Source: Octopus vulgaris (taxonomy: Eukaryota). From it: DNA of 64,000 nt. The notes under the pieces were generated by a model, which worked only from the letters and a program-made list of their open reading frames with translations, made no database searches and was not told the DNA's origin. This document shows positions 5,754 to 44,511 of this stretch, in pieces; the stretch's first letter is position 1, and each line of letters begins with the position of its first letter. Location: NCBI GenBank assembly GCA_951406725.2, contig OX597824.1, positions 1,984,001 to 2,048,000 on the forward strand. Reading direction: 5' to 3'. The position numbers were made by a program, and so were the translations under genes.

Positions 5754-6368
5754 TGTGTGTTTGTATATATGTACGTTTTACATCCTCTTCACATTCCACT
5801 GCTGAATTCAGATCTGAAATATCAGTTGGTGTGAACACATGGATAAGTCTCATCTGGCGAATTGGAGCATACCACCCGCTTCTCCGGATTCAACCGCTGT
5901 ATCAATGACTATAGGCCGCTGTCCATTCAGGCTCCTAAATTTACGATCAAAAGAACATAACTCTAACTTCCAACCTTATTTTCTATTTTATCCATTTCTC
6001 TTCTGGTGTTTTCAAAACTTTCCATCTTTTACATCTACTTTCTCCAAATCTTTTATGATACATTCTCCCAATCCATCGTTCTATTCTAGCTTGGTATGCT
6101 ATATAACAGAACATGAAGATTGTGTAGAGCTACACACACACACACGCACGCACACACACACGCACACATACACGTACACACATATATAGAGAGAGAATAT
6201 GTGTATTAATGAAAATATACATATATATATGCGTGTATGTATGTGTGTATATATAGATATATTTACATGCATGTATATGTATATGTACATATTTATATGT
6301 ATATATATATATATACACGCACAAACACCAAACACATACGCGCACACCTATATATATATATATATATA

Positions 6369-6509
6369 TTAGGAAGGGCATCCAGCCGTAGAAATTTGCC
6401 AGATCAGACTGGGCCTTATGCAGCCTTGTGGCTTCCCAGACCCCAGTTGCACCGTCCAACCCATGCCAGCATGGAAAGCGGACGTTAAACGACGACGATG
6501 ATGATGATG

Positions 6510-6512
<3 letters not shown>
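6369..6512 (+). mobile_element. 3' portion of a SINE or RTE-type tail ending in (GAT)n
   Basis: aggaagggcatccagccgtagaa motif (resembles a conserved SINE central domain) followed by ccatgccagcatggaaagcggacgttaaac(gat)n. Confidence 0.65.
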
Positions 6513-6582
<70 letters not shown>

Positions 6583-6595
6583 TACATATATTTAT

Positions 6596-6800
6596 GTATC
6601 CGCGTGTCTTTGCGTGTGTGTTTGTTCCCCCATCAACATCAACGCTTGACAACCGATGCTGGTGTGTTTACGTCCCGGTAACATAGCGGTTCGGCAAAAC
6701 TGACTGATAGAATAAGTACAAGACTTACAAAGTATAAGTACTGGGGTCGATTTCTTCGGCTAAAAACGCTGTAAGGCGGTGCTCCAGCATGGCTGCAGTC

Positions 6801-6802
<2 letters not shown>
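6596..6802 (+). mobile_element. SINE family A, 3' half
   Basis: Reverse complement of 1050-1230 (cttgacaaccgatgctggtgtgtttacgtccc...gcggtgctccagcatggc). Confidence 0.85.
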
Positions 6803-6840
<38 letters not shown>

Positions 6841-7090
6841 GTGGAAAGTTGAAAACACCGGAAGACAAATTTAGAAACCTGAATGGACGGCGGCCTGTAT
6901 ATAAGGTGGTATAAATGGTCTCAATAGCGTTTTTTGTATTGTTTCTACAGGAGTGTCGTTCACATGTTTGTGGACCGGTATACTGAAGCAATGTTATAAG
7001 ACTAAAAATGTATTACAGTTTAAGCATAACACAAACTGATATTTACGCCAGCATGTATGTCCATAAACATCTTACGCATACATATCATAG

Positions 7091-7312
7091 ACTCTTTTAC
7101 TCTTTTACTCTTTTTCTTGTTTCAGCCATTTGACAGCGGCCATGCTGGAGCACCGCCTTTAGTCGAGCAAATCGACCCCGGGACTTATTCTTTGTAAGCC
7201 CAGTACTTATTCTACTTGTCCCTTTTGCCGAACCGCTAAGTGACGGGGAAGTAAACACACCAGCATCGGTTGTCAAGCAATGCTAGGGGGACAAACACCG
7301 ACACATACACAT

Positions 7313-7358
<46 letters not shown>

Positions 7359-7523
7359 GACAGGCTTCTTTCAATTTCCGTCTACCAAATCCACTCACAA
7401 GGCATTGGTCGGCTCGAGGCTATAGCAGAAGACACTTGCCCAAGATGCCACGCAGTGAGACTGAACCCGGAACCATGTGGTTGGTAAGCAAGCTACTTAC
7501 CACACTTACCACACTCCTGCGCC
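7091..7523 (-). mobile_element. tRNA-derived SINE, family A, full-length
   Basis: Colinear high-identity match to 1023-1436, including head and tail. Confidence 0.9.
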
Positions 7524-7591
7524 TATGCTTATATCTATGCATTATATACATACACATACATACACACACACATACACACATATATATATAT

Positions 7592-7657
<66 letters not shown>

Positions 7658-8158
7658 CAAACTAGATAAATATTTAGATATATAGATAAATAGATAGGCA
7701 GATTGATACATAAATACATAGATAGATAGATAGATAGAAAGACAGACAGGCAGATAGATAGATAGATAGATAAAGATACACATTTAAATGCATGTATCGT
7801 AATAATGCTAAACTTTGATTCCAAAATTTGCAACGTAACAATTTGGAATTTTCCTTACAACGTTATCTTCACTTTCTCTGCCTCCAATCAACAATTTCCG
7901 TCTTCGGTCTACCACCTTTACTTACCATTCTGATCCTACATTAAGTTGTCAAAATTCTGAATTGTAATTCCTTTTGTTCTTTATGTTTGATGCTTTCGCT
8001 CGTAATCTTCCAACTACATTTACATTCGTTATTATCTCGAATGCATCTTTATGTAGAACAGTTTACTTTTACACACATTAAAAGCAATCAAATACATGCG
8101 TGTAGACATAGATGGAATCGACGGCAAGCTGGAAGAAGCACGTCAGGCGCCAATTATA

Positions 8159-8200
<42 letters not shown>

Positions 8201-8589
8201 CTTATACTCATACCCACTTACACACATTCACGCACAAACATATATATATATATATATATATATTAATATGCATGTATATATATATGTATATATATATACA
8301 CACATACTTATACTCATACCTACTCACACACATTCACGCACAAACATTATATATATATATGTATATATATAAATGTATATATATATATATGTATGTATAT
8401 AAACATATATATACATATATAATCAAAAACAATAAAGAGTAAAATTTATTAATTGATTAATAATTAATAATTTTACTAAGTAGTTCATTATGTTAAAACA
8501 GCCATTTTCGGTAAACTTATACGAAAATTCTATAATTATGAGTATAATTGTAATCAGCAGCCTGATTTCACAGGACCCGCCGACACGCC

Positions 8590-8840
8590 AATTGCAGGGT
8601 TACAGGCAGTGGGAGACTTAAGGATCAGCATTTGTGATGATGCATCATTTCATATGCACATCACCAAGATGGAAGAAAAGTGCAGACTACTGGCAGGATG
8701 GATATTAAGGTCCTTGAAGACAAGAGACCAAGGAGTTTTGCTGACCCTGTGGAGGACCTTTGTTCTCAGCCCCCTTAGCTACTACTCTCAGCTATGTTCA
8801 CCACATAGTGCTAAAATGACAGCGGACTTGAAGTGGTCCA
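8590..8840 (+). mobile_element. CR1/L2-like LINE reverse-transcriptase C-terminal fragment
   Basis: DLRI..DDASF..HI...GWILRSLKTRD..VLLTLWRTFVLS.L.YYSQL.SP motif. Confidence 0.8.
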
Positions 8841-9184
8841 GTGTCAGTTATTTGCGCATGTACCGCACTCCCTGTCCCTTTCAAACTATTTGCTTCTGCA
8901 GATAACCAACAATTCACTCTCTCAGCCTTTTGTCTCAAAGCCGTGACTGTTCATGTTGGATATCCGGCGAAAAATCGAGTTTCGTATTCCTGCCCACACC
9001 GTGTTTTATGTTTGTCCTCATCTTATACAGTACTTTGTCTTCGACTTGTCTGATTTCACTAATATGATTTTTCCCCATATATAAAAAAAAATATCCAGCT
9101 GGGTAACACATACGCCATTGAAACCGAGAACCCGGGCCCATGAGCCTAGCTAGGGTTTAAAATGGCGCATTTATTTTTATATCT

Positions 9185-9219
<35 letters not shown>

Positions 9220-10435
9220 TACGAGAATTACGTAATATCGATGATGGCGAAACCAGTCTACGATTAATTCAGTATTTTGTTTATTTCCATCTGTCTTACT
9301 CGCTTATGTTCTGGTGTTTGCTGAATTTCTCTAGAGAACATTCTTTTCTTTGTAGTTAGATCGCAGGTGATCTTCTTCTAGCATATTGGATGTCCACTTA
9401 GCGGTCTTCTCTACTCTATTATACGCATGTATTACAATTTATCTGAATTTTCAGATTTGTGTATATGCTAGGCTACTGGTTTTAAATTGATGTTAATTAA
9501 ATTAATACTCAATTTATCAACCTCATTATTTAAATTATATATATATATATATGCATGTATAGAGAGAAAGAGAGAAAGAGAGAAAGAAATGCTCACAAAC
9601 AAACGCACACATATGTATATATATACACACAGCCACATATATATACACACGCGCACACATATTCGTCAGTGTGCATGCGCATGCGCTTGTATCTGTATGC
9701 AAATGAATTCTTTTAAAGTTATTCATCTGAAGATTAAAATTGATTTTCCTTAAGTATCTTTCGCCGCACCGTGGTGTGATACGTCAATGCAACGATCACT
9801 TAGGAGAAAACACAATAGATTCACTTGAAAGCGAAGCCTGTTGAAACACGTCTCACTCAGACTTGGTTTCAGTAATAAACTGGAATCGATACAGCATTAC
9901 CACGTAGTTTACATGTGAGTCATCAATTTTGATAACTATTAGTATTCTAGACTTAACTGATCAGGGAATAGTAAGATTAACATATCTCTTGAGAAAGAGA
10001 GAGAGAAAAATCGAAAAGTGAATATATTCAGGTTGCAATAATTGTTGTGTTTATCAAAGATGTTATAAAGTTATGAACCTCTGGAAGTTGTATTTAGATA
10101 TCTTTGCTTCTCATTCATTAAGATGGAATGAAAGAGTAGAAAATATGGCTAATTTGTCAAAATGGCCGACGAAGAAATAATAGTGAAAGCAATTACTTCA
10201 CGGAATATAATTACTGTTGTGAGTTCTGAGAACTATATTAAATTCTCGACGTTAATATGCTGATGGCATTTAATTTGAAGTGATTTACGGGAAATTATTT
10301 TCTTGTTGTGTGCCAGCAAATTGCTGTCCCCGTAATCTAGAGGCATTTATGGGTGCTGCAAAGCTGACTGAAATAAATTAGGTATATGGCAGTGTAACTA
10401 TTGTACCTCCTTCTTTGTATCCCAGTCTATTAGAA

Positions 10436-10745
10436 TGTGGTTTGAGCTTCGAATTTATGATCGTGAGGCTGTGAATTCGATTCCAGGACCATGTTGCGTG
10501 TTCCATTCTTGAGCAAGACACTTTATTTCACGTAGCTCCAGTTAACTCAGCAGTAGAAATGAATTGCGTGCACACTGGTGCCTAGCTGTATCGGCCTTTA
10601 CCTTTCCCTTGGATAACATTAGTGGTGTGGAGAGATGAGGCTGGTATGCTGGCCTTCCATAAAAAAACCTTGCTCGGACGTGTGCCTCGGAGGGTAACAT
10701 TCTATGTGCTATCCCATGGTCACTCATGACCGACGGAGGTCTCCT
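10436..10745 (+). mobile_element. tRNA-derived SINE, family C
   Basis: B-box-like gaattcgattcc followed by a CORE-like cttgagcaagacactttatttcac...ccagttaactcagc body. Confidence 0.7.
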
Positions 10746-10750
10746 CTCCT

Positions 10751-10907
<157 letters not shown>

Positions 10908-10994
10908 CATTTATATATATATACATGAATATATATATATATATATACATATATGTATATATATATATATATATTCATGTATATATACATATAT

Positions 10995-11025
<31 letters not shown>

Positions 11026-11211
11026 TTTTCCGTATATATATATATACGTATGTAATATATATATATATATATATGTATATATAAATGTAAGTATATATAT
11101 ATATACATGTATATATACATATATATATATAGTGACCACTCTCTTATATATATATATATATATTATAAAATATATATAATCCAGGTTCTCGGAGCACTAG
11201 GCCACTTGGTG

Positions 11212-11261
<50 letters not shown>

Positions 11262-11376
11262 CGACAAAGAGAGGGAAATAAAAACAGACGGACTTTTCTC
11301 CTTGGTCCGAGAATGATGTAAGTCGAACTAGGTAGATGAAATCTATTTTATTAGTTATTGCGGTCAATATATAGCC

Positions 11377-11497
<121 letters not shown>

Positions 11498-12075
11498 CAT
11501 ATGCCTGTACGAATGTATGCACGCATTTGATGAGAAATAGTAAAGCATTCTGCAGGCGAACGTTGCCGTTTATGTATGTATGTATGTGTGTATGTGTGTA
11601 TGTATGTATCAATTACTATATTTGTACGCATGCAAAATTTGAGACAAGCAAATATTTAAATGGATAGAGACAAACAGACTTTCGAGAATTCTCATGCGTG
11701 GTTATACTCCCGCAGTTACTCACTCCTCTTCAGAACTACTCACATCCTCTTACAGGGACACACACACAAACAGAAAAACACTCACTCATACACACATGCA
11801 CATTGATGTATACCGACACTTCCACATGCATACAAAAATAAATACGTTCACGTACACACACACACACACACACACATAAACATGTATACCTTGAAAGATC
11901 TACTGAATCACGGGGAGGAAAAATCACATCAAAGCTACAGCAGTTTTTTTTTCTGAAATGTATAAACTTCATCTGATAACCAATATTATTTTACTGTGAA
12001 ATACCCCCAGGAATAAAACTGAAATCAATGAAAAAAAATATAGTTGCGTCATAGTTCATATCCGTTTAATATACA

Positions 12076-12238
12076 ATGATAGTAATGATGATGAGGACAA
12101 CAATAACAACACCGATGATGATGATGATGATCATGATAATGGTAATGATGATGATGGTGGTGGTGATGATGATGATGATGGTGATTATGATGATGGCAAC
12201 GACGATGATGACGGTGGTGATGATGATGATGTTGTTGT

Positions 12239-12282
<44 letters not shown>

Positions 12283-12286
12283 TTGT

Positions 12287-12345
<59 letters not shown>
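12076..12345. repeat. (ATG)n trinucleotide array
   Basis: Direct tandem repeat that explains the poly-Met ORF. Confidence 0.95.
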
Positions 12346-12348
<3 letters not shown>

Positions 12349-12599
12349 TTTCTTCTGACCCCGAGGGAATAAATCTGTCGCCTTTTAGTAAATACGACGA
12401 TAGTTACGTTTATAATAATTATGAGAAAAATAATACATGCAATAAGATGGTAATGATGATGATGATGGTAATATATTGGTCATAATCATAATTATAATAA
12501 TAAGTTTTCCTATGGCATAACGTCAGCCATTTTGTGAGGCGGGGTTTAAGTTTATTTCATCGGCCCCTGTGCTTGAAGGGTAGTTATTTCATTAAATTC

Positions 12600-12778
<179 letters not shown>

Positions 12779-12854
12779 AAAATACATACTCATCTAACAT
12801 CCCCAGTTACCAGTTACTGGGATGTTAGGTGATTGTGTCAATTTGTATTCGCCA

Positions 12855-13060
12855 GAGGTTCTGATTGTGAATGATGATAATGGGATTTTATGGAGTTTCT
12901 CTTTGTAGCAAAGACACCTGATATAATCATGGAAGATTTATCGGAGCAAACAACGGGCCATCTCGTAGGATGCTAAAGAACATATCAAGGAAATCGAAGA
13001 AAAATTACAAATATCATTACATAGCAAGTAAAAAAATAAAAAAGCTCGTGGAACATTACG
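12855..13060 (+). mobile_element. R4/Dong-like LINE restriction-like endonuclease remnant
   Basis: V.NDD..ILW, PDII and E.EEK..KY..I..KKL.W-like motifs with stops. Confidence 0.5.
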
Positions 13061-13653
13061 ATGAAAAATCCGCTCAACACAACACCAAAGCTGAGTAAAC
13101 TGAAGTATGTAGGTTATAGTTTGCGAACAACCTATGAAAAAATCGCGACTGAAATCGATATGAATTCAGGAACTGTGAACTGGTTATATCATTACATATA
13201 CTAGTCAGCCATCTTGTATCAATATCTCTCAGATGTAACTTTTCAAATTCATAATGGTTAAAATCATGTTTTGTAAAGTTCTAGAGGAAATCCTGCTACA
13301 CCTACCTCATACAGGTCTCCCAGAGTTATGTCGAATATGTTCCTCTTATAAGCTGTATAGCTGAATGGATTATTTAAAATACCTCAAAAGCAGACATTCC
13401 AGATCGAACCAAGAAACCTAGTGTAGATTTATTAACTTTATGCAACTGACAAAATATTTCCTAATGCAGAAAAATTATAATGGATTTTATTGGTGAGTTC
13501 AATGAGACATCTACTCTTTGGATGCACTCCTCCAGATCCTAGCAGCTGAATATTGATTTATAGCTGTACTTCGAAAATAAAATCTATATAAGCAATACAC
13601 ACACACACACACACAAATACACACACAAACACACTTACACACGTACACACACG

Positions 13654-13721
<68 letters not shown>

Positions 13722-14267
13722 GGTAGGTAGGTATGCATCTGTATGTTTTTATGTATTGGGAATAGTGATAGAGAAAGTAGAGAGAATGCGGACAGTAAAA
13801 GCAAAGAAATGCTATTGCATAGAAAGAGAAATCTAACCGTTCAACGGAAAACAGAAATTGTAAAAAATGAGAAAAGATCTGTATATAGAAATCCAGTAAG
13901 CAGAGTTGGTATAACTTTGTATCTTATATTAAAAACACAGTTTACATGATATCATTGAAAAACAAATATACACATCTATCATGGCATAGCTAAATCTAAG
14001 GAATTAAAAACTTCATTTCACAAAATTCTGAAAATCTCATGTATTTCGTCAAAGCAGAAAGAAATTAATCAGTTCGCATACTTTCAGAATCCATCGTTGT
14101 TCTCCTCTTCTCGAACCGTGTTAGTTGTATGAATAAATAAATATCCAGAGGAGCATCATACACGCTGAGAAACTCACTGAGAGGTGTAAGAGTATTTAGC
14201 GCTTGCATAAAAGTTCTGCCTGGCACACATGAATACAAAAGATATATATATATATATATATACATAC

Positions 14268-14705
14268 GTATACTGCTGCCCACTGTGGTCTCCTCACACA
14301 AGACAAAACATCTCCAGAATTGAGTCACCCCAGAGGGCTCTCACTAAACAAATTGAAGGCATGGCTGCTCTCGACTATTGGGATCGCCTTAAAGCCTTGA
14401 AACTTTACTCCTCCAGCGTCGCCGTGAGCGGTACATCATTTGTACGATGTGGAAAATATACCGCCAACTTTGCCCAAACAGATTCTGGATAGATTCCTTC
14501 AAAGAATACCAGACAAGCCACCCATAATTGGATACAACACACCCAACAAGAACTCACTACTTGAACAAAACTGGATACAACTCACCCAACAAGAACTCAC
14601 TACTTGAACAAAACTTGACTTAAACAGGATTCGAATAATCCTATCAGGTGGTGCTATTAAGTTAGACATGGCCTGGACCAATCTCTGGTCGAAACATATC
14701 TAAGT
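14268..14705 (+). mobile_element. CR1-like LINE 3' fragment with an internal 43-bp tandem duplication (14529-14614)
   Basis: YCCPLWSP...IESPQRALTKQIEGM..LDYWDRLKALKLYS, then QRRRERY after a frameshift. Confidence 0.85.
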
Positions 14706-14754
14706 TATATATATATATATATATATATGTATGCATGTATATATATATATATAT

Positions 14755-14985
14755 ATAATAAAATATTAGGGAATAAATCCAAACTTACAGGGAAAAATCA
14801 GATTTAGGATTAAATCCAATTTTATAGTATAAATATATTATATTATATTAAATTAGAGATAAAAACCACTATTGGGCAAATCAAACAGTGAAAAACATAA
14901 GCCAATACATAAAATTTATTTATATTATTTTAAATATATATCAAAAGTATTAAAAGTTTAATAAAAGATAAAGAGTAAAACACTA
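14755..14985 (-). repeat. Copy of the PLE pLTR-like repeat that forms the 28810-29293 palindrome
   Basis: ataataaaatattagggaataaatccaaac...gagtaaaacacta is colinear with 28815-29045. Confidence 0.85.
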
Positions 14986-14999
14986 AATATATATATATT

Positions 15000-15057
<58 letters not shown>

Positions 15058-15504
15058 AATTTAAACTGCAGTTTTTACCTCTGTAGAAATGGAATGCTCT
15101 ATGACTCACGTGGGCGGACAGGGAGAATAATAGATCTCATTCGTATTTTTGGATTCGCTAGTACTGGATGTCTGGCATAGTTTGTCCGATGTTACAGATA
15201 TCGGACGGGTATGTTTGATTCTTAGTATTTTCAAATCTAAATCAAAAGAAATCTCTGAGCTGATGAAGGAAAAGTGGCGTTTTACCCACAAATCCAGAAA
15301 CAGACTGTCCTCGGGTATCGTATATGGATGTGATCTTTCATTGTTTTTCCCTTATTCCTATGTGAGTTATTTTTCTGAGTATACATTGTCTGGAGACTTT
15401 TATTTGCAGTTGAAGAAATAGCCAAGTTTTTGGCTGCTATTTCGGAAAAGTTCGGTGTGTGGTAAAGTGAATTCTTTTACTTTACCATATTTTTATAAAT
15501 TATG

Positions 15505-15553
<49 letters not shown>

Positions 15554-15605
15554 AGATGTACTCGCATAGCAAGTAATTTGATCTGAGATCGTGTGCTGAA
15601 ACGAA

Positions 15606-16128
15606 AACAATTGCAGCGTGGAAGGTGTTTATAAGCCATTTAAGAAACACACAAAAGCCGTTCGATTCACTTCAACATTTAAGTTTAATTTGTCAAAATA
15701 TTTTCGTCGCTAAAATCTGCGATCTGTTCACTGACAAAGTCCGTGCTGCATCTAAGAAAGTAACAGTTAGTTCGTCATATATATGTACGTATGTATGTGT
15801 GTATGTATGCATACATGTGTGTATGTATGTACGTATGCATGTACGCACATACGCCTGTGTATGCATGTATGTATGTATGTACATGCATACGTACATGCAT
15901 ACGTACATACATACACACATGTATGCATACATACACACATACATACGTACATATATATGACGAACTAACTGTTACTTTCTTAGATGCAGCACGGACTTTG
16001 TCAGTGAACAGGTCGCAGATTTTAGCGACGAAAATATTTTGACAAATTAAACTTAAATGTTGAAGTGAATCGAACGGCTTTTGTGTGTTTCTTAAATGGC
16101 TTATAAACACCTTCCACGCTGCAATTGT

Positions 16129-16129
<1 letters not shown>
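15606..16129. repeat. Near-perfect inverted repeat with 240-bp arms (15606-15845 / 15890-16129) and a 44-bp spacer, PLE pLTR-like
   Basis: Arms are reverse complements with one mismatch seen (15723/16012). The ORF track shows the same peptide on both strands. Confidence 0.95.
15997..16046 (+). ncRNA. Hammerhead ribozyme variant with G3-C8 core (mirror copy 15689-15738 on minus)
   Basis: UUUGUCA-GUGAACA-G-GUCGC(agauuuua)GCGAC-GAAAAUAUUU-UGACAAA: 7-bp stem I, 5-bp stem II, palindromic stem III. Confidence 0.7.
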
Positions 16130-16163
<34 letters not shown>

Positions 16164-16169
16164 ATATAG

Positions 16170-16660
<491 letters not shown>

Positions 16661-16702
16661 TATATACATATATGCGTGTGTGTGTGTGTGTGTGTGCGTG
16701 TT

Positions 16703-16751
<49 letters not shown>

Positions 16752-16761
16752 ATATGTGTGT

Positions 16762-17482
16762 GTATTATTCCTTTAAATGTCACAGTACATGTATTAATGC
16801 GCTATTAATAAACTCATATATTGAGAAAACTCAAAACATACACTTCAGGCGCAAACCACGTATCATAACGATCTAAAGAATTTGAATAATAGGAGAAACA
16901 CATACACAAAAAAAAATGGGAAGTCAGTATATAGAAAATCCAGATAGTAAACAACGGAAAACGAAAAACTTAAAACGAGAAACTGAAGCTAAAATGCAAA
17001 AAATAAAAAGTAAAAAGGCAAACGAGCTTAGACGGTAAATAATAAGGCTGGAAAGGTATCACTCAATCAGGAATAGGCAGAACTTTCCATTCCTTCAAAT
17101 TATATTTATACATTTTTTTCAGTGGTTGCATGCATATGCATAAATATATTTTGAAGAATTGTATAGGTCCGCCTATTTCTGACTCACTTGATATCTTTCC
17201 AGCTTTATTATTTAAGGTCTAAAGAGGATAACTTTTTTACCTTTTTACTTCTTATTTTTTTGGCATTTTAGTTTCTGTATTTCGGTTTTTGTTTTCCGTT
17301 GTTTACTGTCTTCGTTTCTTATACGATGCCTTCTCTGTTTTTTGTGTTACTTCTATTATTCAATTTCTTTAGTTCCTTATGATATGTGGTTTGCGCCTGA
17401 AGAATACATATTTCAGTTTTCTCAATATACGAAACTATTAGCAGCGATTTAATACATATATTGTGACCTTAAATAAATAATA
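16762..17482. repeat. Old inverted pair (arms about 250 bp, spacer about 220 bp) with decayed hammerhead motifs (16798-16853 minus, 17392-17446 plus)
   Basis: cttcaggcgcaaaccac/gtggtttgcgcctgaag and atattgagaaaact/agttttctcaatat are mirrored. The right arm reads UGCGC-CUGAAGA...AAUAUAC-GAAAC. Confidence 0.75.
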
Positions 17483-17546
17483 TTTATCTCTCAACAAATG
17501 AAGCACTCGTTTAGTTGAATTTTTTTTCAAGGATCAATACATTTTA

Positions 17547-18390
17547 TATCGGGTCATCCCATAAGTTCTGTCCGATTTTACACTTTTCAAAATTGAATGA
17601 AATTTAATGGTATTTTAGAATGTCTAATGGAACTTAAAATTATTTCTATGTATTTGCGTACGTTTAAGCTAATTAAATATTATTTTACTGAATAATATAA
17701 TTAAAGTTTCTTTGATTAAAACCCTTTCTAACATGGAAGTATCCAAAGAGCATTTGAGGTACATAATGCTTTATGAGTACAAAAAAGGAAACTCTGCAGC
17801 CGAAGCGACTCGAAATATACATTCAGTTTATGGGAAAGAATGCTTGAATGAAAGAACTTGCAGAAGATGGTTTGCAAATTTCAGAAGTGGAGATTTCATC
17901 CTAGAAGATGAAGATCGAACAGGACGTCCAGTTGAGTTTGATGATAAGCTCCTTGAAGCATTATCAGTTGAAGAGTTGGCAATAAAGCTTAGTTCAAACC
18001 ATACAACTGTTCATCGTCATCTTCAACAACTTGGAAAGATTCCTAAACTTGGAAAATGGGTGCCTCATGAATTGTCCCAAAGCAACCGCAAATCCCGAGT
18101 TGACATCTGCTCTTCTCTCCATTCTCGCGAACTCATTTCATCCTTTTTGGATAGACTTGTGACTGGGGACGAAAAATGGATCTTCTATTGAAATGTTAAA
18201 TGTCGAGAACAGCGGCTTGGTAAAAGGAAAAAAAGCTCAATCACAACCGAGAAGGGAACTTCATGGGAAACTCAAGTCTACTGTCAGCAATTAGGGCGTT
18301 TGAAATAAGCTTTAAAGAAAAAGACTCGCTTTAGTGAATCGAAAAAGGAGTGATGTTTCATCAGGACACACTGCACGACCCCGATACTTA
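17547..18390 (+). mobile_element. Mariner transposon, 3'-truncated pseudogene (ATG at 17733, stop at 18189)
   Basis: MEVSKEHLR..LYEYKKG.SAAEA..NI..VYG, WF..FRSGDF, WVPHEL and LVTGDEKW motifs, then FHQD..RP. A TIR-like tatcgggtcatcccataagttc lies upstream. Confidence 0.93.
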
Positions 18391-28532: not shown

Positions 28533-28906
28533 GGAGAGAGAGAGAGGTAGATGCAAGCACGAAAAACAGAACTCAAGATATGAGTATATGTCTATTTTTA
28601 TTAATGCTTAGCAAAAATAACGGAGTGACTCAAGGTCTGAGATTTTCATGCGTTGGCAATGGACGAAACTCGCTGACCTTGATTCACTCTATTACTTGTG
28701 CCAAATATCAATAAATATATGTATTTATATTTATACGTATATATTTGCATATCTATCTTTCTATCTACCTATCTCCCTCTCCCTCTCCATATATATATAT
28801 ATATATAAAAATTAATAATAAAATATTAGGGAATAAATCCAAACTTTCAGGGAAAAATCAGATTAAGGACTGAATCCAATTTTATAGTAAAATATTATAT
28901 TATATT

Positions 28907-29287
28907 AAATTAGAGATAAAACCACTATTAGGCAAATCAAACAATGAAAAACTTAAGCCAATACATAAAATTAATTAATTTATATTATTTTAAATATATA
29001 TCAAAATTATTAAAAGTTTAATAAAAGATAATGAGTAAAACACTACGATCGTTTCATGGCTGTCCAATTCGAGTTCTTCAGGTAAGATGAATATTTCAAT
29101 CACCTAAAGATTGACTGTAACCATAACTCGAATTGGACAGCCATGAAACGATCGTAGTGTTTTACTCATTATCTTTTATTAAACTTTTAATAATTTTGAT
29201 ATATATTTAAAATAATATAAATTAATTAATTTTATGTATTGGCTTAAGTTTTTCATTGTTTGATTTGCCTAATAGTGGTTTTATCTC

Positions 29288-29293
<6 letters not shown>
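28907..29293. repeat. Inverted repeat with 169-bp arms (28907-29075 / 29125-29293) and hammerhead-like motifs at the centre
   Basis: Arms appear to be exact reverse complements by eye. Minus arm has CUGAAGA...GAAACGAUCGUA, and plus arm (29101-29159) has CAC-CUAAAGA-stem II-GAAACGAUCGUA-GUG. Confidence 0.93.
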
Positions 29294-29352
<59 letters not shown>

Positions 29353-33560: not shown

Positions 33561-33624
33561 TTTATTGCGTAATAAGATAAAAAAACCAAGGGTGTGTAGA
33601 TATTAGAATATTTATTGATAGAAG

Positions 33625-33676
33625 GTCTTACAGCTGTTTCCAGGATATTTATTAATTATATCCTTTCATCGGAGAC
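33625..33676 (-). ncRNA. Hammerhead ribozyme motif downstream of a PLE RT fragment
   Basis: GUCU-CCGAUGA-A-AGGAUAU(9 nt)AUAUCCU-G-GAAACAGCUGUA-AGAC. Confidence 0.7.
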
Positions 33677-33779
33677 AGTGTGAAAGGATGGTTAAGTAAT
33701 AGTAAATTTAGATAGGATACAAAATAGAGAGTGAGGTGGAGGAAAGAAAATAGATGTGTGATATGTAGTAATATATGTG

Positions 33780-34445
33780 GCTTTTAATATTTTTTATGTA
33801 TGTGTAAAATTTCCTTTAATTTTGGTCCTTATGTAGCATTGTAACATTGGTAAATTTTGGGTGATGATGATGAAGGCTTCTTTGTTTCTGAAGTTGTATG
33901 TGGATATGTACGGCAGTATTTTCGGGGAAGATGTGTTGCTGTGACGAACTTTTCTTAAGGTTTCTATGTCGATTTCTGTTACTCGTCTGGCTCCATCTTC
34001 TGTAAGTTGAACTGGGTCTGTCAATTAGTGTGTTTTTGAGTTCTTGCAGTCTAAGATTTCTGGTATTTTTCTGACGTTATTGTGCATATCCTTGCAAGGG
34101 TGAAGGGAGCGTTTGTTTTGGTGTGTCTTGGATGGCATGAATTAAACAATAGATATTGTTTGGCGTCTGTGGTTTTGTAGGATATGTCTGTTTCTATTTT
34201 TAGGTTTATTTTCTTAATTGCTATATCCAAGAATGGGAGCTCCTTTTGGCTGTATTTCAATGTGAACTGTATGTTAGGGTTGACGCTGTTCAATAGTCTT
34301 TTGATTTTCAGGAATTTGTGTTTTCATTCCAGAGGATGAAGCAGTCGGCTAGGAATATTTTCCAATTTTCCTTTATGTATTAGGAAAGAGAGTTTCCCAG
34401 GGTAGATAAAGATTCCTGGTATATTATTATATCCAGATAGCCCAT
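33780..34445 (-). mobile_element. Penelope-like RT C-terminal/thumb pseudogene fragment
   Basis: YIKENWK.FL.DCFI.W, NSVNPNIQFT......LPFLD, TD..YK.TD.KQYL.F.SCHP.HTK...PF.LAR.ICTI. Confidence 0.9.
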
Positions 34446-34513
34446 TCATAAATATATATGTACACACATATATGCATATTTATATATATACATATACATA
34501 TATATATATAAAT

Positions 34514-43209: not shown

Positions 43210-43870
43210 TCTGTCAATATATTTAATTAATCAATTTAGGGTAGTAAAAAATTCGATAGAAATTTATCACTACCAGCGGCCCAGTGGAAAAGAAAAATAG
43301 TCATGAGACTAAAATGTAAATATATAACAATTTAGGAATGGCCTTAACAGGCCATTCGTCCACTAGACAGAGCAGCCATAACTCTAACCGCAAAGTAATA
43401 TAATTCGGAAATAGGTGAAAAATTAAAAACGTTTACCCTAATTCATCTTTTAGACGATGCATCGTTTCTGCGTTTTTAATGATAGACCAGCCTAATTAAA
43501 TTAAATTAAGCTAATCTACCATAGGTCACGCTTCGTCAGTAAAGAAACCTTTGGTAGAGGCAGATATACACGAGGCTAACGCATCGAAGCCTCTGGAATA
43601 TCTGTCTTAAAATTTTCGAAGACCAGCGCAATCGCGCCAATCTTATCAGCAGCAAATATAAACTGCCGATTCAATCTCAGAATTAGTCAGAAATTAATCA
43701 ATTAATCAATTTAGGGTAGTAAAAAATTCGATAGAAATTTATCACTACCAGCGGCCCAGTGGAAAAGAAAAATAGTCATGAGACTAAAATGTAAATATAT
43801 AACAATTTAGGAATGACCTTAACAGGCCATTCGTCCACTAGACAGAGCAGCCATAACTCTGTCAATATAT
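43210..43870 (-). mobile_element. Non-coding partial-tandem retroelement: 475-bp monomer, 161-bp direct repeats (43225-43385 / 43700-43860), TSD (tct)gtcaatatat
   Basis: The repeats differ at one base. tctgtcaatatat occurs at 43210-43222 and 43858-43870. An internal canonical hammerhead is present. Confidence 0.85.
43448..43543 (-). ncRNA. Type I hammerhead ribozyme with canonical core and GUC cleavage triplet
   Basis: UUUA-CUGACGA-A-GCGU-[19-bp helix with 4 G.U pairs]-ACGC-A-GAAAC-GAUGCAUC-GUC-UAAA. Predicted cut between 43453 and 43452. Confidence 0.85.
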
Positions 43871-44302
43871 ATATATCCATATACACACATGCATATATAT
43901 ATATATATATATAAATGCAGAGATTGAGATGAAGTGAGGGAAAAGGTGTCTTTGTGAACTATTGGCATAGCAAAATTAATGTCTCTGCCGGGGCTAAAAA
44001 TGTAGGCAGTAATTTGATAACTGAATTGAGCGAAAATGTTACGTGCAATTAACGTATCTATGCACACACGTATGTGTGTATGACGCAGTCATGCTTACAC
44101 ATGTCCCTTCATTTACCCAAGTAATATATGCTTATATATATATATGTGTGTGTAGAGAGAGAGAGAGACAGAGAGAGAGAGAGACACAGAGAGAGAGAGA
44201 TAAATAATAGATAGGCATCAGTCATAAACACACTTGTAAATACATACATACATTCACATATATTGCTATTGTTTTATTCATTCAACTGGTATTTCTTTCC
44301 AG

Positions 44303-44511
44303 GTCCACGTACATTTGATATCAGCGTAATGTTGATGTCGATAGACGATTCGGAAACGGATTGTGTAGATTTGTCCCCTCTCATGCACCAAACATTAGAA
44401 TTGAGAGGATATAAACTACTGGAGTATGGAAACTTTAAATACTATGATGTATTTAAAGAACACAAGAATGTTTACATCATTACGTTAATCTGGCATCCTG
44501 ACAATTTATAA
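44303..44511 (+). CDS. Candidate terminal coding exon of an unidentified host gene
   Basis: Acceptor atttctttccag| precedes about 69 codons of complex non-repetitive peptide (PRTFDISVMLMSIDD...YIITLIWHPDNL*), an AT-rich downstream region and AATAAA at 44730. Confidence 0.4.

What the first reader, a model, noticed from the sequence alone, without database searches (positions are those of the whole stretch)
43210..43870. Retrozyme-like element: 1.3 copies of a 475-nt hammerhead monomer inserted with a target-site duplication
Seen: 161-bp direct repeats 475 bp apart with one mismatch, flanked by a 10-13 bp duplication (tct)gtcaatatat, and no coding capacity. The minus strand carries a canonical hammerhead (CUGACGA/GAAAC/GUC) with a 12-nt palindromic stem III. 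Its extended stem II is a 19-bp helix containing four G.U pairs that only pair on the minus strand. The single difference between the repeats lies in a 9-bp hairpin (GAAUGGCCU-GUUA-AGGYCAUUC) and changes G-C to G.U on that same strand. Established: metazoan non-LTR retrozymes and PLE pLTRs are partial tandems with type I HHRs, and retrozymes yield circular RNAs. Inference: this is a young non-autonomous element copied from a circular or multimeric RNA of about 475 nt, probably by a PLE RT. It may be an undescribed cephalopod family.
Basis: partly seen in the sequence, partly recalled or inferred. Interest (0 to 1): 0.9.

Follow-up and report, generated by a model that had tools for sequence, protein, structure and literature searches.

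The report
Hammerhead retrozyme riding Penelope machinery
This is one truncated copy of a large family of non-coding, hammerhead-bearing tandem repeats whose insertion ends match the signature of Penelope-type retrotransposons, so it is likely copied by their enzyme, and a sister subfamily carries what is likely a genomic footprint of its ribozyme cutting.

Summary
In detail: 161-bp repeats 475 bp apart, a 13-bp target duplication and a minus-strand type I hammerhead motif. It is a 1.34-unit, 5'-truncated copy of a high-copy, ORF-less tandem family (subfamilies A1, A2, B, C; units 440-494 nt) of the non-LTR retrozyme kind.

Copy anatomy points to Penelope-like (PLE) mobilisation. 3' ends fall at two sites 88 nt apart, next to (TA)n. 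Of 88 head-to-head two-arm insertions, 76 carry one end of each type and none two alike (9 cut off, 3 aberrant). An autonomous PLE in this genome does the same (3 of 3). No homologous autonomous partner was found.

Corrections: the hammerhead is not canonical (A.A at 10.1-11.1; the active fold costs 7.8 kcal/mol), and a circular RNA is unproven. In subfamily B, whose core is well formed, 46 of 122 5' ends pile up just after the predicted cut (9 expected); A1 shows none. This favours partly cleaved linear multimers as one template and suggests cleavage is dispensable. New member of a known kind, useful mechanistically.

The parts
43226..43860 (-). Whole insertion: 1.34 units of the 475-nt monomer, single arm, 5'-truncated at about 43860, 3' end at the distal (tailed) site 43226
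43210..43222 (.). Left copy of the 13-nt target-site duplication (extends to 43225 with one mismatch), at the edge of a short (AT)n run
43858..43870 (.). Right copy of the duplication; first 2-3 bases shared with the element's 5' end (microhomology)
43226..43313 (-). 88-nt 'tail' between the proximal (about 43314-43321) and distal (43226) 3' end sites; inferred to be the two reverse-transcription start sites
   Evidence: concept from PMC11167929
43240..43274 (-). Tail stem-loop ending 14 nt before the distal end; stem compensated across A1, A2, B and C
   Evidence: (helix 8)
43276..43391 (-). Predicted long-range helix (43276-43287 pairing with 43360-43366 and 43387-43391) enclosing the proximal end and the 43336-43357 hairpin
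   Evidence: helices 5-7
43446..43546 (-). Type I hammerhead motif; predicted cut 3' of C43453; A.A at 10.1-11.1; self-complementary 12-nt stem III (43454-43465)
43479..43522 (-). 19-bp extension of stem II with four G.U pairs
43321..43795 (-). One complete 475-nt unit, no ORF over 22 aa from ATG; folds far better than shuffles as a circle (z -7.8; opposite strand -6.5)
43700..43860 (-). Upstream partial unit (the second 161-bp repeat, equivalent to a pseudo-LTR)

Best explanation
It is a 5'-truncated copy of an ORF-less tandem family with a hammerhead motif in every unit and two fixed 3' ends at (TA)n targets, likely reverse-transcribed in trans by the RT/GIY-YIG protein of a Neptune-type Penelope-like element from a multimeric RNA. 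Shown: fixed ends, variable 5' ends, one tailed and one tailless arm in inverted insertions, microhomology or filler at arm junctions, near-identical units within an insertion, compensated RNA helices around both ends. Inferred: the PLE protein binds the structured 3' region, nicks both strands of AT-rich DNA and primes one cDNA at the proximal and one at the distal site; the two cDNA ends are joined head-to-head; if one arm prevails, as here, a direct partial tandem with a duplication results. Templates are read through uncleaved or re-joined hammerheads; in subfamily B many stop near the predicted cut, which suggests partly cleaved linear multimers. The window's subfamily likely cleaves poorly yet kept moving. 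Circles may supply the monomer-to-multimer step (about 40%) but are not shown.
For:: 1822 candidates, 40 scored, 93 matches on many contigs; in 55 A insertions 85 of 87 visible 3' ends lie at two sites; of 88 two-arm insertions (A and B) 76 have one of each, 0 have two alike, 9 are cut by the locus edge, 3 have one aberrant end. Control: the autonomous 753-aa PLE shows the same in 3 of 3 two-arm insertions. 196 of 203 3' ends abut (TA)4+ against 9% background (partly built in, as three queries ended in TA). 40 of 55 filler-free junctions share 2 nt or more, null 17%. Many intact PLE ORFs with RT, CxxxxCxxC and GIY-YIG exist in the genome. 97% of cells paired and 7 of 60 pairs changed on both sides, against at most 47% and 2 when slid. 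B: 46 of 122 5' ends in the 30 nt from 3 nt before the cut, 9.1 expected; A1: 5 of 50, 4.1 expected; by insertion 29 of 65 against 5 of 26, Fisher P 0.03. Active fold costs 7.8 kcal/mol in this copy, 1.8 in B.
Against: No autonomous PLE with a homologous terminus in 109 PLE-related loci, so the driver is inferred from footprints only; the autonomous families seen carry different, mostly UUGA-type hammerhead-like cores. The 88-105-nt tail is longer than the published 30-40 bp. The B pile-up coincides with a U/A-rich, self-complementary tract that could cause stalling or joining without cleavage, and most ends lie 5-25 nt downstream of the cut, not on it. The covariation rests on three related subfamilies, and the count of doubly changed pairs did not beat the shuffle control (107 of 500). 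Period-2 and period-3 variant patterns in three arrays show later duplication or multimeric templates. No RNA or cleavage data.
Confidence: 0.85

Rival explanations
1. Rolling-circle version: hammerhead cleavage and ligation give a 475-nt circle, and the PLE RT runs round it; all multimers come from circles.
For: Arms up to 7 units cross the cut site repeatedly. Units within an insertion are far more alike than between insertions (A2 0.4% vs 3.9%, B 0.3% vs 0.6%, A1 1.0-1.3% vs 2.4%). 18 of 70 insertions with overlapping units carry sample-private variants in all covering units, 10 of them across both arms. The unit folds well as a circle. Mussel, coral and axolotl retrozymes make circles (PMC7229834, parts read).
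Against: A homogeneous donor array read as a linear multimer gives the same pattern. A circle has no 5' end, yet B arms, including 2.3-2.5-unit ones, stop just after the cut. Variant periodicity in L070, L072, L197 does not fit one monomeric circle. The A core is predicted to misfold.
Confidence: 0.35
2. The unit is only the tandemly amplified terminus (pseudo-LTR) of an autonomous PLE that my capped searches missed.
For: All end features are those of PLE termini; only 117-150 of 6,000-18,000 candidates were scored per protein search.
Against: 134 family loci: none continues into a PLE ORF; the 6 with ORF pieces nearby look like separate neighbours by position, orientation or an intervening (TA)n run (one read in full). 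A, B and C are colinear over the whole unit at 47-69% identity, so the ORF-less unit is old.
Confidence: 0.07
3. A DNA-level satellite or Helitron-like repeat with an incidental hammerhead.
For: Some arrays show later DNA-level duplication; no Rfam hit.
Against: Fixed 3' ends with ragged 5' ends, tail asymmetry, target duplication, strand-specific G.U pairs and a conserved core across 50% divergence.
Confidence: 0.03

Closest known systems
Metazoan non-LTR retrozymes (Cervera and de la Pena 2020, PMC7229834, parts 2-3 read; Li, Clavereau and Pollet 2026, bioRxiv 10.64898/2026.07.22.740005, parts 1-3 read)
   Same: [quoted passage not shown]
   Different: Here the link to PLEs rests on insertion footprints (two fixed ends, tail on one arm), not on pLTR homology, which I did not find. 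Long stem II extension, 4-bp stem III, A.A at 10.1-11.1. Circles not shown. In the parts read, neither paper treats a cephalopod.
EN+ Penelope-like elements, Neptune/Nematis type (Craig et al. 2021, PMC8557442, passages; Arkhipova et al. 2013, PMC3846280, passages; Frangieh et al. 2024, PMC11167929, parts 1-2)
   Same: Partial tandems, inverted 5'-truncated arm, tail often on one end only, AT/microsatellite targets, two internal RT start sites, hammerhead not needed for insertion in vitro.
   Different: No ORF; tail 88-105 nt (77 in C) against 30-40 bp; arrays up to 7 units.
Non-autonomous Chlamys elements such as MRC1 (PMC8557442, passage)
   Same: Non-autonomous PLE derivatives forming pLTRs and multicopy head-to-tail insertions.
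   Different: Those resemble an autonomous family at the 3' end and their clade lacks canonical hammerheads; this has a hammerhead and no identified partner.

Membership tests
Non-LTR retrozyme | Short tandem unit, no ORF, GC under 50% | tested here: met
   475/494/440-nt units, arrays to 7 units, longest ATG ORF 22 aa in A
Non-LTR retrozyme | Type I hammerhead motif in each unit | tested here: met
   Core boxes and three stems in 75 A and 96 B cores; 65 of 75 A cores have A.A at 10.1-11.1, 94 of 96 B cores A-U
Non-LTR retrozyme | Two consecutive units with complete hammerheads (Li et al.'s 'active' copy) | tested here: not met
   This copy has one hammerhead; many other copies of the family meet it
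Non-LTR retrozyme | TSD longer than 4 bp when present | tested here: met
   13 nt here; readable in only 6 of 112 insertions, most of them weak, because targets are (TA)n
Non-LTR retrozyme | Self-cleavage | not testable with these tools
   Only folding energies and the B pile-up
Non-LTR retrozyme | Accumulation of circular monomer RNA | not testable with these tools
   No read data obtained
EN+ PLE (autonomous) | RT plus GIY-YIG ORF | tested here: not met
   No ORF in the unit or joined to 134 copies
PLE-mobilised element | Partial tandem, inverted 5'-truncated arm, tail on one end | tested here: met
   76 of 88 two-arm insertions, none with two like ends
PLE-mobilised element | AT-microsatellite target | tested here: met
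   196 of 203 ends, partly biased by the queries
PLE-mobilised element | Terminus homologous to an autonomous PLE of the same genome | tested here: inconclusive
   None in 109 loci; searches score only the best candidates
PLE minimal hammerhead (PMC4209133) | Extra base after A9 with G10.1-C11.1, palindromic stem III | tested here: inconclusive
   Palindrome met; A can be read with the extra base and G-C only if a second extra A precedes GAAA, as in part of subfamily C

The most novel reading that the evidence does not exclude
An old cephalopod-type retrozyme lineage is inserted by a PLE dimer that primes two cDNAs at two structured sites on opposite target strands and lets them join head-to-head; sister subfamilies form a natural experiment in which hammerhead cleavage, visible as a truncation hotspot in B, limits copy length, while A has damped its ribozyme and still spreads. 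The ribozyme would then be a brake or an optional step, not the engine.
Probability: 0.35. Interest if true: 0.72.

Novelty: new member of a known kind. Interest (0 to 1): 0.5.

Why it matters
How animal retrozymes move, and what the hammerhead does in the Penelope cycle, are open questions: the PLE link has rested on co-occurrence and pLTR phylogeny, and in vitro work found the ribozyme dispensable. This family gives countable genomic footprints for both, a strict one-tail-per-insertion rule in an ORF-less element, and matched subfamilies with good and poor ribozymes that can be compared in one assay. The window copy itself is an ordinary truncated member.

Tried and rejected
Rfam found no hammerhead.

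Partner search: GIY-YIG family and two protein queries in the own genome, blastn and nhmmer of the element against 109 loci. An 80% match in L033 turned out to be a separate subfamily B insertion, not a pLTR. A weak hit in L138 was subfamily C.

Sequencing runs: no RNA holder listed on record; 20 of 24 rows under four organism codes hold part of the unit, none was laid, so no claim on expression, empty sites or polymorphism is made.

The idea that all arrays are one circle copied many times was rejected for three arrays. A pile-up at the cut site was looked for in A1 and not found. The neighbouring 98-aa frame at 44215-44511 has no Pfam match; gene context is unknown.

Earlier findings of the scan: nothing. 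Lunse et al. 2016 on PLE hammerhead variants is not held. Repbase and Dfam could not be checked, and paper supplements were not read, so a consensus may already be catalogued without its ribozyme.

Full report
Observation. The repeats, spacing, duplication and hammerhead boxes are as described. The local fold is strand-biased (z -5.4 minus, -2.2 plus). Positions 10.1 and 11.1 are both A, and stem I has a mismatch. The predicted minimum-energy fold hides the GAAA box, and forcing the active fold costs 7.8 kcal/mol. Rfam does not detect the motif.

Host and copy number. The window lies in a 2.8-Gb assembly with about 30 large contigs; this fits an octopus by my recall and was not tested. The element gave 1822 candidates, of which 40 were scored, in two identity groups: A1 at 94-99% and A2 at 87-89%. 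A match beside a PLE locus led to subfamily B: 494-nt unit, 70% identical, 681 candidates, 40 of 40 scored identical over the query. Another led to C: 440-nt unit, 54% identical, 2057 candidates. A, B and C are colinear over the whole unit and lack ORFs, so the ORF-less unit is an old lineage. All counts are lower bounds or candidate counts.

Ends. Read on the hammerhead strand, 5' ends scatter and 3' ends do not. In 55 A insertions (duplicates removed), 48 ends are at a proximal site, 37 at a distal site 88 nt further on, and 2 elsewhere. B was sampled twice with queries that fixed one end. Over A and B, 88 insertions have two arms head-to-head: 76 have one proximal and one distal end, none has two alike, 9 are cut by the locus edge and 3 have one aberrant end. 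The autonomous 753-aa PLE of the same genome follows the rule in 3 of 3 cases with a 45-nt tail. 196 of 203 ends abut (TA)n; three of my queries ended in TA, so this is partly built in. Of 83 arm junctions, 28 have inserted bases; 40 of the other 55 share 2 nt or more, against 17% for random joins. Craig et al. (PMC8557442, passages) and Arkhipova et al. (PMC3846280, passages) describe partial tandems, an inverted truncated arm and a 30-40-bp tail often on one end. Frangieh et al. (PMC11167929, parts 1-2) show that the tail is the stretch between two internal RT start sites, that both strands are cut and extended, and that the hammerhead is not needed in vitro. The window copy is a single distal-ended arm with a readable duplication.

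RNA structure. On 16 natural copies of A1, A2 and B, 97% of cells pair, with 7 of 60 pairs changed on both sides; slid controls give at most 47% and 2. The pair count did not beat the letter shuffle (107 of 500), the structure came from these sequences, and there are only three lineages, so this is supportive, not proof. The tail stem reads GGUAGU/ACUACC, GGUAGC/GCUACC, GGUGGC/GCCACC and GGUAAU/AUUACC in A1, A2, B and C. Both end sites lie just downstream of a conserved hairpin, a plausible RT-binding element (inference).

Template. Arms run up to 7 units and cross the predicted cut repeatedly, so templates are uncleaved or re-joined multimers or circles. Units in one insertion are more alike than units of different insertions, and 18 of 70 insertions carry sample-private variants in all covering units, 10 across both arms. 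This excludes jumping among a pool of monomers, but not a homogeneous donor array. Three arrays show period-2 or period-3 variants. In B, 94 of 96 cores have A-U at 10.1-11.1, stem I is 8 bp, and the active fold costs 1.8 kcal/mol. There, 46 of 122 5' ends lie in the 30 nt starting 3 nt before the cut, 9.1 expected, and the best of all windows starts 4 nt before it. A1 shows 5 of 50, 4.1 expected. By insertion it is 29 of 65 against 5 of 26 (P 0.03). The stronger 19-bp hairpin upstream causes no excess. Against this reading, most ends lie 5-25 nt downstream of the cut in a U/A tract with slippage-like fillers, so stalling or joining by sequence remains possible. I noticed the B cluster in part of the data before defining the window.

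Partner. The genome holds many intact PLE ORFs of 750-780 aa with RT, a CxxxxCxxC motif and GIY-YIG; the motif marks Neptune/Nematis. None of 109 PLE-related loci shares the element's terminus, and none of 134 family loci runs into an ORF. The driver is therefore inferred.

Literature. Cervera and de la Pena 2020 (parts 2-3) define the class and show circles in coral, mussel and axolotl. Li et al. 2026 (parts 1-3) argue that such elements are non-autonomous PLEs and found cleavage in 1 of 9 tested. Cervera and de la Pena 2014 (parts 1-2) describe PLE hammerhead variants. PMC6765202 was seen as passages. Searches listed no description of this family; the 2026 Octopus vulgaris repeat annotation has no mention of hammerheads or ribozymes in its main text (supplements not read). 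Repbase and Dfam were not available.

Verdict. A real, apparently undescribed member of a known class, best read as a non-autonomous PLE passenger (0.85). Circle involvement about 0.4; efficient self-cleavage of this copy about 0.3. Interest 0.5, carried by the family-level footprints rather than by this copy.

Noticed in passing
window 28806-29295: A second, unrelated two-arm head-to-head insertion with a small hammerhead (GAAACGAUCGUA) between (TA)n runs, again one short and one tailed end; 1298 candidates in the genome, no PLE ORF in the 5 loci checked.
   Followed up: partly
window 33600-34450 (minus strand): Decayed, truncated Neptune-type PLE fragment, up to 65% identical to the 781-aa protein, between (TA)n runs.
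   Followed up: partly
L061, L132, L137, L138, L149, L116 (3' ends): Autonomous PLE families here carry hammerhead-like cores starting UUGA instead of CUGA, recalling the U3-A8 covariation reported for Schistosoma PLEs. Folding not checked.
   Followed up: no
L172, L191, L194, L206, L223 junctions: Runs of a short TTTAAAAA-type repeat fill the arm junctions of B copies at the U/A tract; could be RT slippage or polymerase-theta templated insertion.
   Followed up: no
L061-L069, L131-L142: Two very young PLE families with many intact ORFs (781 and 753 aa, often 99% identical), candidates for currently active elements.
   Followed up: partly
L003, L004, L006, L231 (contig C31): Four copies share one arm junction, so they are one insertion duplicated within a larger segment or by assembly; counted once.
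   Followed up: yes
L243: Two-arm insertion flanked by an unusually long duplication of about 35 bp (by eye).
   Followed up: no
L082:296-407: A still more diverged, decayed relative of the unit (weak nhmmer hit, E 0.02).
   Followed up: no
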